From positions 18,352,001 to 18,416,000 of the forward strand of contig OZ024747.1 in NCBI GenBank assembly GCA_964016885.1: DNA of 64,000 bases, read 5' to 3'. Below, piece after piece: positions 16,942 to 64,000 of the stretch; position 1 is the first letter of the stretch, and every line of letters begins with the position of its first letter. The stretch is from Eledone cirrhosa (taxonomy: Eukaryota). The position numbers and the translations under genes are program-made. The notes below the pieces were generated by a model. The model was not told the origin of the DNA. It was given only the letters and a program-made list of their open reading frames with translations, and ran no database searches.

Positions 16942-19900
16942 GTAAGCCTCTTTTTTTTTTTTATTTGTTTTAGTTTTCTTTTTAATTTTTTTTTTCGCGT
17001 GAAGCTGCCTGTTTCAAATATATGCAAACACTAAAAGTTTATATATATATATATATGGTTTTATAAATATAGTTTCCATTTATTAATATCGTATATATAT
17101 CAGGATATACATATATATATCAGGATATATATAATCTGTCTGTATTCAAATTCTGGGTTATATTAAGGCAAATTTCAACGCATGCATTAAGCTACTGCAA
17201 ATAAATGAGTTCTATATAAGTTTTCATTCTTTTCTAATTAAACTTTTTATAAAGAAAATTAATTTTATTTTTTTATTTTTGTACTCTGATATAGTTGAGA
17301 TGTTACTTTTCCACAAGGAAATTTTAATTTAAGATTTAAAAAGAACGAAGTTTTTTTTTTTTTTTTTTTTCGTGATGAAATTGATGGCATTTGAAGACAG
17401 TACAGCATGGCCGAATTAAGTAGTTTATTTCGTAATAATTAAGATCATGATTTGATCCCACTGCGTGGATTTTTATATTCAAGAGTCTAGTCTTGTCATG
17501 TTGAATCTGCAAGGTTTACACGTGTCTGGAACGCCCAACCACACATATGCACGGTTATGAAACCACTGGAGTTTTCTTTTTCTTTCCCGATATTTGAAAA
17601 AGAAAAAAAAATTGAGAAAATTAAAATTTTTCATTTAACAACTTTAAAGAAAAGAAAGTTTCAGTTAGCAAAATATCTTAATCAAATTTTTTTTTTAGGG
17701 AATTAACCTCAACTTTTTCACTTCTCTGTTAATCTCTTGCATTTTAGTAGCTATATTGCCTTGCTTGCGGTGAATAAATAAAAAAATCGAATCCGGACAT
17801 ATTTTATAAAGTAAAGTTTGTAATTCTCGTCTCGTCTATTCTAAAAGTGCTCATCATAAACCGCATACATTTTTTATTAACTGTAAATAAAAAAATGTTT
17901 CGATTATTGATCTGCACCTTTCAATCACTTAATACCACTGACTAATCCCTTTTTGCTTCTATGAAATATTTTAATCTTGCTTTAAAACATTCCTTGGCTA
18001 ATTCATATGGTCCTGTTGTGTGTTCTGTAATTTGTCTTTTATATATTTTTATCGTCTCTTAATTTCTAACATCTACAATTTTAGGAAAGGGAAAAGTCAG
18101 TCAGTTTAGTCTTGTTTTCTAAATGATATCAGAATTTTGTTTAACGTATTTGTATATTGATATATAAAAAAGATCCTAGTCGGCTAACCATGATTTCCTA
18201 GCCTCACACAGGGTGGTTATGTATTATATGTACCGGTACTTATGTAATAGCGAAGTGCTGTCATAACCCAACTCTTCAATTTTAGTGCTGACGTGTGCTC
18301 ACACACACAACATACTGGTGTTTTCTTTTTAAATATTTCATTTAAAACAGTTTTATGATGCAATAAAGTAGACAGGAATTTAATATTTCAAGTAGATTTT
18401 AAAATTAACAGTTCTCATGTAAGCAAACAAAATTCATTTTTTCTATCAATACATTTCCCGTTTTTTCTTGGAATTTATGCCTTATCAAAAACCAGGACAA
18501 TTCACTGACAATCAGGACAAATTAGTTAACTCGAAGGGGACACCGAGACAGCTTTAGCTTACAAAACCTTTTTTTTTTTTTTTTTTCAATGTTAAATGTG
18601 ATAAATAATAAGATTTCTGCCCATTTAATACTGTGTAGATCATATGGATTCTATATAATATATTTCTAGACATAGTCTAAAACGTCTTTGTATTGTGTTA
18701 CATAATTTCCCCTATAGACTAATTACTAAATTACCTACTCGGAATATTGACTGATGAAAAGAGCATGCATGATCTCAACTGCGCTGTCTCTCTTAGTCCA
18801 TTTGCTAAATTTTCTACTCGGAATATTGGGTTATGGAAAAGTATACATGATCCAAATTGTGAAGTTATCTACTCGGAATATTGACTTGTGGAAAAAGCAT
18901 TCATGATCCTAACTGCTGAAGCTGAATACTATCTAGGTCGAAATACAGATCTTTCAGCAGATAGATTCGCATGTTCTCTCTTCAAGATATTTTCATGTAT
19001 ACCATTTTCTAATAACTATAATGCACGCATATAGAATGTCAAAGAGCCGTATGTAATGAGAACCACGATTTGGGTAGCACCTGGTCACTATTAATACTCT
19101 AACCAGATCAGTTTTTTAATAACTTTTGAGAGCAGAGAGGGAAAAGTATTTTTGTTGTCGCATATGTTCATTAGATTTTTATACAATCACACTTCGTAGT
19201 TTAGAAATTGATCTAGAATAAGCTTATGTTATTGCGTCATCCTATAAATAATGCGTTTTCTTTTTCAACCACATGCAATAAAAGTTTGGGGGGTGGGGAT
19301 AAACACCTGTATAAATTACATTCACTTTGGCCTCATTATTAATGCAAGTATTCAAAAGAGCAATTTATCTTTTTTTAAATATAAGTATTTAAAAAAACCT
19401 ATTATTTAAAGGATGTCCAAAAAATTTAACTTATCAAGTTTCTAAACTTTTCATTACCAGCTTAACGTCGTGTGAATAATGCACGGTCGTCTATCTTATA
19501 CATTCTATTTAATTTGTTGGAAACTATACAGTTTTCCAATCTAATAACAAGCGCATCAGCGAATTGTTAATTGTAAGTAATCATTTTTATTGCAAAAGAA
19601 TACACGTGATAGCAAATACATTGGAAATAACATAAAATCTACTGAGATTGGATGGATGGACTGACAAGAAATATCATTAATAAATGCAGCAATGTATTTT
19701 ATATTTTCTTATACCCACCACCCTTAATTGTATTTAACATGTGCACAAAGCTGCATTTTGAGGAGAGTGGTATCGTCTAGTGATCCGCAGGGTGAGGTGG
19801 GGATGGGGGGGGGGGGGCATCAAAAGTGAACTTGTTGAGTAGACAGTTTTTTCAAAAGTTTGGGTCTGTGGAAAAAAATCATTTAAATGAATGTGATATT

Positions 19901-47072: not shown

Positions 47073-47276
47073 GAGAGTCAGGACTCCCGACGGCTGAGCT
47101 CCGGCCGTTTCGACAGCTAGATACGAACGGTTCCGATCTAGCTGTAGAAACGGCCGGAGCTCAGCCGTCGGGATCCTGACTCTCTTCCTTTCTTCATATT
47201 ACCCACTCTACTACCCTAAGAATTGAGTACACTGGGGCGTTATTGTCCACCTGGTATCTTACCACACCCTCTTTGT
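47070..47276. mobile_element. GC-rich 118-bp palindrome plus tail inserted in (TA)n; arms carry the 3' half of a hammerhead
   Basis: Palindrome at 47070-47187; (C)GAAAC-GGC..GCC-GTC stem III and cleavage triplet; (TA)n on both sides. Confidence 0.65.
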
Positions 47277-47502
47277 TATATATATATATATAAATGTGTG
47301 TATGTGTGTGTTCGTGTGTGCATATGTATACGCACATGTATATATACGTATATATGTATATATATGTGAGTATGTATGTCTATATGTATGTATATTTATA
47401 TATGTATACGCGTATATATATATATATCCGGGAGCTTCCAACAGAAATGGTCGTATTCTTTAAGGGTATGTCAATATTTATTTATAAAACTGCTCTATAT
47501 TA

Positions 47503-47567
47503 TATTTTATCTGATGAAAGCACACCATAATTTAACTTGGTGTCCTTGAAATATGTATAATGAAATA
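47503..47567 (+). ncRNA. Minimal type I hammerhead motif (same family as the 60.2 kb element)
   Basis: tattttat-CTGATGA-aag.acacca/tggtgt.ctt-GAAAT-atgt-ATA-atgaaata. Confidence 0.65.
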
Positions 47568-48224
47568 AATATGGTTTTATAAATATAGTTTCCATTTGTT
47601 AATATATCGTGTATTCTGACCTAGGGAGGAAATGGCAATGTCATAGAAGAATGGGATAGTATGCTAAAATTTAAGTGAAAATGAAAATGAAAATGAAAAT
47701 GAAATGTTTTATTACAGAACTGAGTGTGGGTATGTATTGAAAGGGTAAATAAAACAAAATAGTACCTACTTTTATGATGGTCATATTTTGGAGCTTCATA
47801 ACTTTATATCTATGTAGTCTTCTGAAAGTGACAGTCCTTTCTTAGTGTTAAAATGAATTATAAGTTAACAAACTCTTTCTAAAACAATTTTCGTTTCAAT
47901 TAATATGTTCTTGGAATCAACAACTGTTTTGGAAAATGGTATAAGAGTTCTGTGGCCAAATAAGTTTGAGAGCTACAGGGAATTGATGCTGCATAAATTT
48001 TCAAGTTTTCAGCTTGATTTGGTTCAGCTTTCATGTAGTGTAACCACTGCAGTAGTAAATACAACTTGCAACTTTTTCTACCCGCACCCTCTCTCCCTCT
48101 CTCTCTATATATATATATCATGGATAATAGGCCTCGCATACCAGGACTGAACAGAGTCTGATTTACCACCTTGGGTCTTGTTTCCCTCATGGACTCAATT
48201 CCCTCTCCAATTTCTTTAATATTA

Positions 48225-53172: not shown

Positions 53173-53281
53173 ATGGCGAGTGGAGGTTCGGCAGGAATTC
53201 CACCTAATTTCAAACCTATCCAACATTATTTAAAGATTTCCGATGAACATAGTAACAGGGATCAAGTAGTTTCATATTACT
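53173..53281 (+). CDS. VTA1: Vacuolar protein sorting-associated protein VTA1 homolog, exon 1
   Basis: MASGGSAGIPPNFKPIQHYLKISDEHSNRDQVVSYYC|gtaaga; N-terminal MIT1 region. Confidence 0.93.
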
Positions 53282-57382: not shown

Positions 57383-57477
57383 GTCAGCTGTATGCCTTTC
57401 AAAAAGCAATGGGAATTGATAAGAAGTCTCCAGATTGTAGGGACTATTTGATGACACTAATGGACTCTCTAGAAATG
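57383..57477 (+). CDS. VTA1: VTA1 exon 2
   Basis: acag|CQLYAFQKAMGIDKKSPDCRDYLMTLMDSLEM|gtatgt; 95 nt. Confidence 0.93.
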
Positions 57478-57914: not shown

Positions 57915-58740
57915 AATTATTTAATGTATAATATTATTTAATGTATAATATTATTTAATGTATAATAAACAATACAATATAATTACATCATTACCAAAGG
58001 TTTCCCGAATGAGACGAATACAAGAAACGTCCGCATTCATTCGTCAGACAAGGCAATTTAAAACATAGTGAAATATTTGAAAAATCTCCTCAAGAAAGGC
58101 TAAAAGTTTAACAGGCAAAAAATAAATAAAAGTAATAATACAAGAAATATAGTAAGGGGCTGTGTGTATATGCACATGTGTATGTTTATACGAATGCGTC
58201 CTTTCATCCTTGTATGTGTATATATTTCAGCCCTTAGTCACTAAGTCTATGTATGCTAACTCCATTATCTTACAATTTCTATTTTCAACATATATATATG
58301 TATTTGTGGTCACACATACACTAATATGTTTGCCCTCATGTATGTACTTATGCACACTTTTTTTCACTATACACATGCATTTGTACATACACACACATGT
58401 ACATATGTATGTGCATATACACACATTTAGACACATCCCCTTACTATATATTATTTTTATTTTTTATACATTTCTTGTATTATTACTTTTATTTATTTTT
58501 TGCCCGTTAAACTTTTAGCCTTTCTTGAGGAGATTTTTCAAATATTTCACTATGTTTTAAATTGCCTTGTCTGACGAACGAATGCAGACGTTTCTTGTAT
58601 TCGTCTTATTCGGGAAACCTTTGGTAATGAGGTAATTATATTGTATTGTTTATTATACATTAAATATTTAGCTTTGTAACTTACATAGAGCACTCTTCAT
58701 TCCTCTGACTTTTTTAATTTTCAACGGAAACTTCAATACT
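57915..58740. mobile_element. Inverted-repeat element (about 215-235-bp arms, about 265-bp CA/TG-rich spacer) with a hammerhead in each arm, flanked by (TA)n
   Basis: Arms at about 57952-58165 and 58431-58666 are near-perfect reverse complements. Confidence 0.8.
58560..58637 (+). ncRNA. Minimal type I hammerhead ribozyme motif (sense to VTA1 intron 2); inverted copy at 57981-58058
   Basis: Stem I aattgccttgt/atgaggtaatt (11 bp with wobbles); CTGACGA at 58571; stem II cgaat..agacg/cgtct..attcg; GAAAC at 58614; stem III ACC-ttt-GGT; triplet GTA. Confidence 0.72.
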
Positions 58741-59389
58741 ATATATATATATATATTTCTGTATATATGTATCTTGTTTTTTAGAATAGGTATACTATAT
58801 AGCTGCATACCATAAGCAGTGCCAAAAACGGGCTGACATCAGGAAGGACATCCAGCTGTAAAACATTGTCTCAAATCATCCCAGCCAACCCATGCCATAT
58901 ATTTTTAAACATGGTCATAAAAGTGATGATGATTAATTTGGTATTTAATTCAATGAGAATATTTTTGGCATTGCAAAGGATATGGAAAAACAGAGACTAC
59001 ACAGTAGAAATTATACTAACAGATTGTTTAAATGATGATGATGATGATTTTTTTTCTTGTGTGAAATTATCTTCCAATTTGTAATTTACTTAAGCAGAAT
59101 ATTTAGTTAGTAGAAATAACAATAACAGACTAACTGAACTATAGTAATTACAAATTACAAGTAAATGACAAAGGCTCTGTACTCAACTTGCTTGAAGTAG
59201 CAGCCAAATCTTCCTCAAATCATGTAGTCCTAGAGAAACTATTTTTGGTAAAAAAATGGATGGCCATAGCTTTGATCATAATGCTGTTCAGTTGTGGCTG
59301 GTCTGGGGTTAAACAATTACAAAACTTTATCAATTATAGTAATTAGATTTGTCATTTTACTTTCTGAGTTCAAATCCTAATGGAGGAGG

Positions 59390-59598
59390 ACAACTTTGCC
59401 AGTATTATTCAGAGGTCAACTTTACCAGTAATATTCAGAGGTCAACTTTACCAGTAATATTCAGAGGTCAACTTTACCACTATTATTCAGAGGTCAACGT
59501 TACCATTAATATTCAGAGGTCAACTTTACCAGTAATATTCAGAGGTCAACTTTGCCAGTAATATTCAGAGGTCAATTTTGCCATTATTATTCAGAGGT
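59390..59598 (+). repeat. 26-bp minisatellite, about 8 copies
   Basis: TATTCAGAGGTCAACTTTACCAGTAA repeated with period 26 (59406, 59432 ... 59588). Confidence 0.95.
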
Positions 59599-59876
59599 CT
59601 GTTCTAATCTATTATTGAAGACATTTCCAGAATAATCATCTGGTCTTGTTTTCAGATACAGGGCTTTTTGGAATACATTATCCAATGTTTCCTTTCTTTA
59701 AGACAATAGAGTGTGATTCATGGGAAATTTAGTTGTGATGCTCTAATCAGCATTTTCTTTTGTTGTTTTTATCAATACAAAGAAAAATATTTTACATTTT
59801 TTTTTCTCTTTTATGTTTCCTTTCACATTAATCCATGTATTTTAAATGTTTTACCTTTGTGTCTTGATACAACTAG

Positions 59877-60004
59877 CTGAAACAGCAATTAGTTGATAAT
59901 GATGCCATCAAGTCCGAAACAGTTGGGCAAGCATATTTGGAGGACTATGCTCTCAAGTTTTTCATTGTGGCTGACAACAAAGACAGAGCTGCTCAGTTTG
60001 ATAA
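59877..60004 (+). CDS. VTA1: VTA1 exon 3 (gene continues beyond the window)
   Basis: ctag|LKQQLVDNDAIKSETVGQAYLEDYALKFFIVADNKDRAAQFDK|gtatgt; 128 nt. Confidence 0.93.
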
Positions 60005-60059
60005 GTATGTATTGTTTGTAGCCCCCAAAATTTTGTCTAATAAATGTATATATATATAT

Positions 60060-60452
60060 ATATTATTCAAAATGTTAACAAATGAAAAATATTCTCATAA
60101 TCAAAATATATATTTTATTATACATATTTAAAAGGTACAATGGTGTTTAAGTACATTTTCATCAGACAAAATATAAGATTTGATATGCGACATACCGCTA
60201 CGGTTTTGATTATTCAATTCCAGTATTGGCACATATCAAATCATATATTTTGTCTGATGAAAACGTACTTAAACATCATTGTACCTTTGAAATATGTATA
60301 ATAAAATATATATTTTGATTATGAGAATATTTTTCATTTGTTAACATTTTGAATAATATTAAAAACTCCAGGAAAATAGTCTGTCGAGTGCTTCTAATCT
60401 ATTGTAATTTTGTATTCGTTGAGTAATCAATGAACTATACTAATCTTTGGTT
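60060..60452. mobile_element. Fold-back element (about 128-bp arms, about 44-nt spacer) with an inverted hammerhead pair, flanked by (TA)n
   Basis: Arms at 60060-60187 and 60232-60359; the right arm extends about 90 bp further to the second (TA)n tract. Confidence 0.8.
60243..60311 (+). ncRNA. Minimal type I hammerhead ribozyme motif (sense to VTA1 intron 3)
   Basis: atatattttgt-CTGATGA(60254)-aaa.gtac/gtac.ttt-GAAAT(60289)-atgt-ATA-ataaaatatat. Confidence 0.72.
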
Positions 60453-60656
60453 ATATATATATATACATATGAAGGGCATCCAACTGTAGAAAACCTGCCA
60501 GACAGTCCTATGCGAGCAAGACAATCACTCTTGCCTCAAGTGGGACTACCCCCGTCGAAACCCATGCAAGCGTGGAACACGGACGTTAAACGTTGATGAT
60601 GATGATGATATATCATCATCATCATCATCGTTTAATGTCCATCTTCCACGCTTATG

Positions 60657-61104
60657 AAGGCGCATAGCTTAGTGGTTAGAGCATTGGGCTTGCAATCGAA
60701 AGGTTGTGAATTCAATTCTCGGACCGTGTGATGTGTTGTTTCCTTGAGCAAGACACTTTATTTCACATTGCTCCAGTTTACTCAGCTGTAGAAATGAGAT
60801 GATAGGACTGGGGTCCCTATCATTCCACTGCAAAGTGGTTGTGGAGGTGCCACGGCAAAAAAAGCACCCAGCCCACACTGTAAAGTAGACGTGTAGGAAC
60901 CACGGAAAAAAGACACCCAGCACTCACTGTAAATGAGGTTGGTGTTAGGAAGGGCATCCAGCTGTAGAAATCAAGCCAGAATCAGTTCCTGTATGAGCAA
61001 GACAAGGTCAGCTGACCGGACACTGCCCACAACAGGACAACCCGTCTACCCATGCTAGCGTGGAAGAACGGACGTAAAACGGTGGTGGTGATGATGATGA
61101 TGAT
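60657..61104 (+). mobile_element. Second tRNA-derived SINE family with an RTE-type 3' end and (GAT)n tail
   Basis: GCTTAGTGG A box, GTTCAATTC-type B box, CCTTGAGCAAGACACTT core, AGGAAGGGCATCCAGCTGTAGAAA, CCCATGCTAGCGTGGAA..(GAT)n; near-identical minus copies at 11137-11481 and 32868-33211. Confidence 0.85.
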
Positions 61105-62704: not shown

Positions 62705-64000
62705 ACACTTAAACACATAGGTGCAGGCATGGCTGAGTGGTTAATAACTTCATTTTGGAACCACTTGATTTTAGGTTCAATCCTACTGCATGGCACTTTG
62801 GGAAAATGTCTTCCCTATTATGGCCTCAGGAACTGATAAATGCTTTGTGAGTGAATTTGGTAGATTAAACATATAAGGAATCCTGTTGTACACATGCACA
62901 CATGTGATAACACTCAATACATTCTAGAAAGTGGTTAGTGATCTGAAGGGCATCCAGCTGTAGAAAAATTATCAAGCAAAGTCATGACAACCTCCCCAGT
63001 GGTGATGCCATGATAAAATGCACCCAATACACTCAGCTGAGTGACATGATCACTGCTTAAAATATTCATAGTGAAATATAAAATACTGAAGTGGCTATGT
63101 AAAGGCTCCATCTTTAGCTCCTAATACTTAGTTTGTTGTTGCTTTTGTTTAGACCTAGGTCATTTCTGTTTAAATAGATATGTGATCAAAACTGTTCAAA
63201 CATTGATACCCACCCCTATCTTTTTAGGGGTATCTAGGTCTGCAATATCTAATGTAACATTTCCTTTAATTATGCTTAACATCTTCTACTGAATGACTAC
63301 ATTAACTTCTCAAAAAGTACAAAACCGCACTTTGACTGCATCACATTACAAATTGAAGATGTTTTTAGTCTAATACTGTAAAGTTTTAGTACGATCTGTC
63401 CACTAGTAATTGTTTTCAGGTATTTTCTGCTAAACCATTACAGAGTGTTGAGAGTAAAAAAGACAGTTAACCCTTCTTATACCAAATCACTTGGAATACC
63501 CTCAGTTTTATTATGGAAAACTGCTCATTTTAAAGTGTTCATACTTATATTAAAATCTTCCATCATAATTTTATGTAAGAACTTTTGTTAAGTTATGCTC
63601 CAAACATCAGCTTAATAATGAGAAAATTGATTATGTTATTAAACTCCTCCAAATTCTTGATTATTTTTAAATGTCACATCCTTGATATTCCGCTTAATCA
63701 AAACAAGGAAGGTTGAGAGGTTGTCTGTGTCTGCTTGTGACTGTTATAGGGACTTATAACCCTTAGTGAAAGCATGGTACATACTATCAAATCATACTCT
63801 GTAGTGAGAGATGTGTGTAGTTTTGTAGTTTTAGTTATTCATTAGAAATATGGTAATGAAAGAGTTAAAGAATAACAAATTCTTCTTCATATTTTATCTG
63901 AATTAGGAACTTGGTGAAGATGTTTTATACAGCAGGATTGTTGTTTGATGTGTTGGCTGTCTTTGGAGAAATAGATGAAGAAGTGAGTTATTTTGAAGTT

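What the first reader, a model, noticed from the sequence alone, without database searches (positions are those of the whole stretch)
60060..60452. Hammerhead-bearing hairpin 55 bp downstream of the VTA1 exon 3 donor
Seen: 128-bp arms. The sense arm has the complete motif (CUGAUGA...GAAAU-AUGU-AUA with an 11-bp stem I). The antisense arm has GAAA changed to TAAA. The same family core occurs solo at 47503-47567 with a different stem II sequence that still pairs, which is covariation visible inside the window. Inference: a long duplex this close to a 5' splice site could influence splicing or editing.
Basis: partly seen in the sequence, partly recalled or inferred. Interest (0 to 1): 0.7.

Follow-up and report, generated by a model that had tools for sequence, protein, structure and literature searches.

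The report
Penelope retroelement hairpin stub in intron
This hairpin is real but ordinary: it is a short mirror-image stub left in a VTA1 intron by a Penelope-type jumping gene with hundreds of near-identical copies in this genome, and its small self-cutting RNA motif is predicted to be locked inside the hairpin, so it likely does nothing for the host gene beyond probably being edited like other repeats.

Summary
In detail: arms 60060-60192/60227-60359, intact sense hammerhead (11-bp stem I, cut predicted after 60300), GAAA>TAAA in the antisense arm, donor 55 nt upstream, stem II covariation. It is a 393-bp two-armed stub of a Hydra-clade-like Penelope element (PLE): inverted 172-nt pLTR piece, truncated pLTR, 93-nt tail, in (TA)n. 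459 exact copies of a core 34-mer; 40,136 hits of a looser hammerhead pattern. Longer copies carry decayed RT-CxCX5C-GIY-YIG ORFs. 46 of 86 sampled insertions are two-armed; 42 of 46 pair one short with one tailed end, as here. The covariation reflects PLE subfamily history, not selection at VTA1. In the pre-mRNA the duplex is predicted to mask the ribozyme (stem I probability ~0), which has a dimer-type stem III and no sense partner nearby. One transcript-like contig leaves the genome at this donor; splicing rates and editing could not be measured. Editing of the duplex is likely, a host function unlikely. This architecture is in print (PMC8557442, PMC3846280), and the scan has noted it before on other DNA (224 notes, at least 40 genomes). 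Interest low.

The parts
60060..60231 (-). Inverted pLTR arm, element positions about +3 to +174 (from the predicted RNA start to the proximal fixed 3' end)
   Evidence: matches family copies over its full 172 nt at 92-97%
60108..60176 (-). Hammerhead motif of the inverted arm, G12>U (private change); not present as a motif in VTA1 sense RNA
60230..60359 (+). 5'-truncated pLTR arm (about +45 to +174), joined head to head to the inverted arm through 2 shared bases
60243..60311 (+). Type I hammerhead motif: 11-bp stem I, stem II with conserved C.C mismatch, 2-bp stem III with wobble-palindromic loop; predicted cut after 60300
60360..60452 (+). 93-nt one-sided 'tail' (+175 to +267, distal fixed 3' end); in longer copies it runs on into the ORF start about 55 nt further
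   Evidence: L223, L227, L230
60047..60059 (.). (TA)n target, left flank; no target duplication can be read
60453..60465 (.). (TA)n target, right flank
59877..60004 (+). VTA1 exon 3; donor GTATGT starts at 60005; intron 3 runs to 63906
47435..47605 (+). Solo one-armed stub of a sister subfamily with intact hammerhead (47503-47567), ending at the proximal site; 5' end approximate (may reach 47381)
17049..17089 (+). 41-nt 3' fragment of the 47.5-kb subfamily after a TA run

Best explanation
60060-60452 is a non-coding two-armed stub of a Penelope-like retrotransposon with Hydra-clade features, inserted in a TA repeat in VTA1 intron 3; it was likely made when the element's enzyme copied the front end of its RNA twice, and its hammerhead is predicted to be silent in the VTA1 pre-mRNA. 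Shown: the arms are pLTR sequence of a family whose long copies encode RT followed by GIY-YIG; family copies end at two fixed sites 93 nt apart; 5' ends pile up at a TATA/Inr-like start; two-armed copies nearly always pair one short end with one tailed end. Inferred: the endonuclease nicks both strands of (TA)n, each 3' end primes reverse transcription at one of two internal RNA sites (+174, +267), both cDNAs run towards the RNA start and are joined head to head by microhomology. Inferred for the host: the left arm is transcribed first and captures the right arm, so the ribozyme does not fold; it would also need a second sense copy to build stem III. The duplex is probably A-to-I edited as an intronic repeat and removed with the intron. 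The arms have decayed without compensation since insertion.
For: Family size: 1642 first-look candidates, 459 exact 34-mer hits, control 0, 40,136 loose-pattern hits, control 0. Link to ORF: 11 of 12 loci picked by the upstream region carry the pLTR about 1.2 kb after GIY-YIG pieces; RT motif YRDD, DKT, CxCX5C, YIG, CxxC, CxH in long copies; tail continuous with ORF start in 3 of 12 RT loci. End rules: 62 of 94 arms end near +174, 32 near +267; 46 of 86 insertions two-armed; 42 of 46 short+tailed; 41 of 94 5' ends within -6..+10 of the predicted start (7-fold density, p 3e-16); 78 of 94 ends abut TA repeat. Same architecture described in PMC8557442 and PMC3846280; two RT start sites define the tail and both strands are cut and extended in vitro in PMC11167929. 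Masking: hairpin pair probability 0.998, stem I and II ~0 in context; stem III costs 2.9 kcal/mol as a monomer. Of 4 arm differences one is a G.U wobble, three are mismatches, none compensated.
Against: Pfam found no RT or GIY-YIG match in 5 fragments and no tree was built, so the clade call rests on motifs and by-eye likeness to published Hydra proteins. The tail is 93 nt against 30-40 nt in print. No locus-specific RNA reads: neither editing nor splicing efficiency was measured, so host neutrality is inferred. The exon 3-exon 4 joint itself was not among the rows shown. Twin priming is one model; PMC3846280 favours self-priming on an antisense template.
Confidence: 0.87

Rival explanations
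1. Same origin, but the duplex 55 nt from the donor measurably changes VTA1 exon 3 splicing (slower use of the donor, intron retention or skipping), perhaps tuned by ADAR.
For: Very stable duplex near the donor. Precedent: inverted intronic Alus pair, are edited and shift splicing of a nearby exon (PMC2533698 abstract). Coleoid intronic repeats are edited (PMC9068888 passages).
Against: Donor is canonical and outside the duplex; X4 holds one 1056-nt contig that includes exon 3 and leaves the genome at the donor, with no cover at 60010-60090; exon 3 is 128 nt, so skipping shifts the frame; such hairpins are common by-products, with a second one of another family in intron 2.
Confidence: 0.09
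2. A co-opted ribozyme switch: editing or co-transcriptional folding frees the sense hammerhead, which cuts intron 3 after 60300 and regulates VTA1; the G12>U change in the other arm would be selected.
For: Sense core is intact; without the left arm stem I forms with probability 0.4-0.9; the G12>U change is private.
Against: Left arm is made first and masks the motif; dimer-type stem III, whose monomers showed no cleavage in PMC4209133 and a PLE ribozyme needed the element's protein in PMC11167929; 459 other copies also keep the intact 34-mer, so intactness needs no selection; G12>U is one of 4 scattered arm differences; family 5' ends show no excess at the cut site (3 of 40, 3.8 expected).
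Confidence: 0.02
3. The hairpin is a self-standing mobile unit (MITE-like or retrozyme) that copies itself as a hairpin.
For: Many short copies with sharp ends and 97-98% identity.
Against: Centres differ from copy to copy, so each hairpin was made anew; no tandem units; the arms are the pLTR of an ORF-bearing element.
Confidence: 0.02

Closest known systems
Hydra clade of C-terminal EN+ Penelope-like elements, including Hydra-1_Obim (Craig et al. 2021, PMC8557442; section 11, passages, supplement rows and part 2 read)
   Same: RT then GIY-YIG, DKT, CxCX5C linker, no CCHH, CxxC and CxH, hammerhead in the pLTR, (TA)n target; Penelope-13_HM is listed with an inverted 5' copy and a hammerhead on each strand.
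   Different: A different family from Hydra-1_Obim (different hammerhead, diverged protein); RWR for RWK; about 4 kb by adding pieces of several loci, against under 3 kb; stem III shorter; not placed on a tree.
Complex PLE insertions: inverted 5'-truncated pLTR plus one-sided tail (PMC8557442 Fig. 2 legend; Pen2a_Av in PMC3846280, passages; PAc in PMC11167929, parts 1-2 of 4)
   Same: Head-to-head arms, tail on one arm only, TATA plus TCACT initiator-like motif at the pLTR start, AT-rich target, tail leading into the ORF start.
   Different: Tail 93 nt rather than 30-40; the stub has no ORF between the arms; no readable target duplication.
Minimal/dimer-type type I hammerheads of metazoan PLEs (Cervera and de la Pena 2014, PMC4209133, parts 1-2 of 4)
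   Same: Type I layout, short palindromic helix III, long helix II, large varied families with covariation, pairs on opposite strands 100-700 bp apart.
   Different: First stem II pair is A-U or G-U, not G-C; no extra base after position 9; conserved C.C mismatch at stem II position 4; longer stem I (8-11 bp).
Non-LTR retrozymes (bioRxiv 10.64898/2026.07.22.740005, part 1 of 5)
   Same: Non-coding, type I hammerhead, PLE pLTR-related.
   Different: Retrozymes are head-to-tail arrays; this is one inverted pair.
Inverted intronic Alu pairs (PMC2533698, abstract only)
   Same: Intronic repeat duplex near an exon, a likely ADAR substrate.
   Different: Here both arms arrive in one insertion; no effect on splicing shown.

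Membership tests
EN+ Penelope-like element insertion | Sequence is the pLTR of an element encoding RT and GIY-YIG | tested here: met
EN+ Penelope-like element insertion | Inverted 5'-truncated pLTR copy, head to head | tested here: met
   window; 46 of 86 insertions
EN+ Penelope-like element insertion | One-sided tail extension | tested here: met
   93 nt, longer than the 30-40 nt in print; 42 of 46 pairs
Hydra clade PLE | RT followed by C-terminal GIY-YIG | tested here: met
   order YRDD, thumb, linker, YIG in L040, L046, L049, L225, L230; motif reading, Pfam gave no match
Hydra clade PLE | CxCX5C linker; CxxC and CxH near the end; no CCHH between GIY and YIG | tested here: met
   read by eye against the text
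Hydra clade PLE | DKT in place of DKG | tested here: met
   L220, L223, L224, L231
Hydra clade PLE | N-terminal RWK motif | tested here: inconclusive
   RWR at the matching place in L224, L230; exact RWK in 0 of 12 loci
Hydra clade PLE | (TA)n insertion preference | tested here: met
   78 of 94 arm ends; both flanks in the window
Hydra clade PLE | Groups with Hydra RTs in a phylogeny | not tested
   no reference proteins were held as sequences; likeness to Hydra-1_Obim and Hydra-1_Ajap judged by eye
Type I hammerhead ribozyme (PLE dimer type) | Core CUGANGA, GAAA, UH cut triplet | tested here: met
   sense arm; core invariant in 30 of 30 aligned rows but these were chosen by the core; not met in the antisense arm
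Type I hammerhead ribozyme (PLE dimer type) | Stems I and II kept by covariation | tested here: met
   30 rows chosen by hand from 120 distinct motifs: 88.2% cells paired, 59 two-sided cells vs 25.5 shuffled (0 of 500), slid controls 35-63%; 5 of 7 inner stem II pairs two-sided; but pairs-with-change 8 vs 7.8 and pair types 21 vs 23.8 do not beat shuffles, and rows are related
Type I hammerhead ribozyme (PLE dimer type) | Short helix III with palindromic loop | tested here: met
   2 bp; loops AUGU 60, AUAU 45, GCGC 4, ACGU 2 of 120; self-duplex only -2.2 kcal/mol
Type I hammerhead ribozyme (PLE dimer type) | G10.1-C11.1 pair and extra base after position 9 (typical in PMC4209133, not universal in Hydra hammerheads) | tested here: not met
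   A-U 18, G-U 11 of 30; so 'works like' a PLE hammerhead, but not the typical consensus
Type I hammerhead ribozyme (PLE dimer type) | Self-cleavage | not testable with these tools
   indirect test negative: no 5'-end excess at the cut, 3 of 40 vs 3.8
Non-LTR retrozyme | Two or more head-to-tail units each with a hammerhead | tested here: not met
MITE / fold-back DNA transposon | Fixed terminal inverted repeats and constant interior copied as a unit | tested here: not met
   variable centres, asymmetric ends, RT-linked

The most novel reading that the evidence does not exclude
The family records how Penelope-like elements insert: one RNA front end is copied twice, from the two nicked strands of a TA repeat, always once from a proximal and once from a distal start site 93 nt apart (42 of the 43 pairs in which both ends fell at a fixed site), both copies running towards the promoter start. 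Each such event drops a self-masking ribozyme hairpin, so this genome holds thousands of ready-made long intronic duplexes for ADAR.
Probability: 0.55. Interest if true: 0.45.

Novelty: new member of a known kind. Interest (0 to 1): 0.18.

Why it matters
The single locus matters little: it is one repeat stub among hundreds of its subfamily. It is a warning that hammerhead hairpins in introns of this kind of genome are by-products of insertion, and that edit calls there can be faked by family reads (RAD-seq DNA reads give A>G at 60155 in 292 of 293). At family level the strict short+tailed pairing, the 93-nt tail and the pile-up at the promoter start give sharp predictions for the still open PLE insertion mechanism in a clade with no biochemistry.

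Tried and rejected
Rfam scan of the window: no hammerhead family at E<=1, only low-complexity miRNA matches below gathering. Own-genome DNA search with 47470-47610 found nothing (the tool skips very common words), although the pattern search lists that subfamily's core. Pfam on 5 PLE fragments: no relevant family. Protein atlas gave no answer for two fragments. No RNA holder listed for 59700-60700; X4 is taken as transcript-like only because it holds a GT..AG joint 57477/59877. Editing not testable: contigs and reads over the hairpin come from many family copies. Presence/absence not testable: RAD-seq runs X21, X22 have no depth on the unique left flank and DNA contigs of X1, X2 stop at 60035; runs X15, X16 show only short repeat pieces in the rows listed. 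Naiad assignment considered first and rejected (EN is C-terminal). Inherited A>G scars in this copy: none among 4 arm differences and 7 tail differences. Loop-out of exon 3: only one 45-nt 80% inverted match between upstream and downstream introns, unrelated to this element. L220 looked full length, but its tail is followed by TA repeat and a truncated ORF, so it was not used for tail-ORF continuity. The bacterial promoter scan is not applicable; TATA/Inr were read by eye. Luense et al. 2017 on dimeric PLE hammerheads is recalled only (not held). Paper searches: VTA1+hammerhead gave 1 unrelated paper; octopus/Penelope/hammerhead gave no study of this family in the 25 of 128 listed; 'twin priming' had 0 occurrences in the three PLE papers among the 9 listed. 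bioRxiv supplements could not be seen and may list further invertebrate families.

Full report
OBSERVATION. The inverted repeat is there: 60060-60192 with 60227-60359, 133 nt, 95% complementary; the inner 128 bp differ at four places. The region folds at -196.4 kcal/mol, z -21.9. The right arm carries a complete type I hammerhead motif: stem I 11 bp, CUGAUGA, stem II of 3+4 bp around a C.C mismatch, GAAA, a 2-bp stem III around AUGU, and the cut triplet ending at 60300. The left arm's copy has T at G12. That change is private: 459 genome hits of a 34-mer with G, 6 with another base, only this one with T. The exon is VTA1 (Pfam Vta1, E 5e-08); exons read from the sequence are 53173-53281, 57383-57477, 59877-60004 and 63907-63982, so the arm begins 55 nt after the donor G at 60005. 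Rfam does not pick the motif up, and alone it folds no better than shuffles.

WHAT IT IS. The unit is a dispersed repeat (1642 first-look candidates, top copies 97-98% identical). A looser hammerhead pattern hits 40,136 places, control 0, about one per 75 kb, so two intact motifs of this group in a 64-kb window are no surprise. Against other copies the window's element is 60060-60452: a 172-nt inverted arm (to 60231; the 'loop' is element sequence), a truncated sense arm from 60230, and a 93-nt tail, between TA repeats. Upstream of one copy lay a GIY-YIG fragment. Searching with that upstream DNA gave long copies; 11 of 12 fetched carry the arm about 1.2 kb behind decayed ORF pieces in the order RT (YRDD), thumb, CxCX5C, YIG, CxxC. 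Twelve loci picked by the RT show DKT, an RWR at the RWK place and a terminal CxH; none of the four printed in full is uninterrupted. In 3 of these 12 the tail runs on into the ORF start. These are the features given for the Hydra clade of Penelope-like elements (PMC8557442), which includes an Octopus family, Hydra-1_Obim, with a different hammerhead. Pfam matched none of 5 fragments and no tree was built, so the clade call rests on motifs. That the genome is octopus-like is my inference from its size (3.0 Gb) and recalled repeat types; no call tested it.

FAMILY RULES. I sampled arms by an exact 34-mer downstream of the cut site (434 hits; about the first 94 on contigs C1-C2 fetched). Of 95 arms one failed to align and was dropped. 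3' ends fall at two sites: 62 of 94 near +174, 32 near +267. 46 of 86 insertions are two-armed and head to head; 42 of the 46 pair one short with one tailed end, 1 has two short ends, 3 have a partner ending elsewhere. 41 of 94 5' ends lie within -6..+10 of a start predicted by eye from TATAAAA and a TCACT initiator-like motif 30 nt on, seven times the density further in (p 3e-16); the reference copy differs at +6, so ends scored +7 probably lie at +1 to +6. There is no excess at the ribozyme cut (3 of 40, 3.8 expected). 78 of 94 ends abut TA repeat. The window's copy follows the rule (+3..+174 inverted; +45..+267 sense). The idea to test these end rules came partly from earlier scan notes; the counts are mine.

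COVARIATION. On 30 rows chosen by hand from 120 distinct motifs, 88.2% of cells pair; two-sided changes 59 against 25.5 shuffled (0 of 500), slid controls 35-63% paired; 5 of 7 inner stem II pairs change on both sides; the C.C mismatch is kept. Two other measures do not beat shuffles, and rows are related. The window's two copies differ by three two-sided stem II changes. This shows that the ribozyme fold mattered to the active elements over the history of the subfamilies; it says nothing about selection at VTA1, where the arms have drifted without compensation (one wobble, three mismatches).

HOW IT WORKS. Shown in the literature for a Poseidon element: both strands are cut and extended, reverse transcription starts at two internal sites that bound the tail, the hammerhead needs the protein and is dispensable for insertion in vitro (PMC11167929). 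Inferred here: two nicks in (TA)n each prime a cDNA on the RNA's front end, at +174 and +267; both run towards the RNA start and are joined by microhomology. PMC3846280 proposes self-priming on an antisense template instead. For the host: the left arm is transcribed first; in context the long duplex has pair probability 0.998 and the ribozyme stems ~0, while without the left arm stem I forms with probability 0.4-0.9; stem III costs 2.9 kcal/mol as a monomer. Monomers of this type showed no cleavage in PMC4209133. So the ribozyme is predicted silent. The duplex does not pair with the donor. Run X4 has one 1056-nt contig that joins exon 2 to exon 3 at GT..AG, covers exon 3 and leaves the genome at the donor, with no cover at 60010-60090; the joint to exon 4 was not in the rows shown. 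Editing of the duplex (109 adenosines in the arms, one A.C mismatch at 60155) is likely, since coleoid introns and repeats are edited (PMC9068888 passages), but it could not be measured, and family-derived DNA reads mimic A>G at 60155.

COMPARISON AND VERDICT. Inverted 5' pLTR, one-sided tail, TA target and pLTR hammerhead are described for PLEs; opposite-strand hammerhead pairs 100-700 bp apart were noted in 2014. Differences: a 93-nt tail, A-U/G-U instead of G-C at the base of stem II, a conserved C.C mismatch. The scan holds 224 similar notes in at least 40 genomes and 1096 notes fitting 'hammerhead Penelope' in this genome; none near this place. Papers seen: PMC4209133 parts 1-2 of 4; PMC8557442 passages, section 11, supplement rows and part 2; PMC11167929 parts 1-2 of 4; PMC3846280, PMC9068888, PMC13282606 passages; PMC2533698 abstract; the 2026 retrozyme preprint part 1 of 5. 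Verdict: real, explained, a new member of a known kind; interest 0.18.

Noticed in passing
window 57952-58151 / 58467-58666, tail to about 58735: A second fold-back with a hammerhead-like motif in each arm (200-nt arms, 97%, 315-nt spacer, one-sided extension ending at a TA run) in VTA1 intron 2; a different family, not complementary to the intron 3 element.
   Followed up: partly
family loci L130-L219: Two fixed 3' ends 93 nt apart, strict short+tailed pairing (42 of 46), 5' pile-up at a TATA/TCACT start, no pile-up at the ribozyme cut.
   Followed up: yes
alignment A1; L024:2449-2524, L096:1644-1722, L142:2094-2168: A C.C mismatch at stem II position 4 is kept across subfamilies and also in a distant hammerhead family that has the usual G-C first pair; possibly a structural element.
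   Followed up: partly
L030:300-1100 and related long copies: About 1.2 kb of AT-rich then pyrimidine-rich sequence lies between the ORF end and the 3' pLTR, long for this clade.
   Followed up: no
L031 and L035: The PLE ORF is split between thumb and linker by a younger LINE with a 1150-aa endonuclease-RT frame on the opposite strand.
   Followed up: no
window 59979-59990 with 60004-60013: The exon 3 donor is predicted to pair with the exon's own 3' end, independent of the insertion; prediction only.
   Followed up: no
window 47074-47183: GC-rich 110-nt near-perfect palindrome just upstream of the solo hammerhead copy; related sequence at L026:2130-2230 suggests another two-armed repeat.
   Followed up: no
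window 59360-59645: Tandem array of a 26-nt unit in intron 2, resembling part of a common short repeat.
   Followed up: no
window 60480-61090: Cluster of very high-copy short repeats, one with a tRNA-like head at 60665-60720, right behind the element.
   Followed up: no
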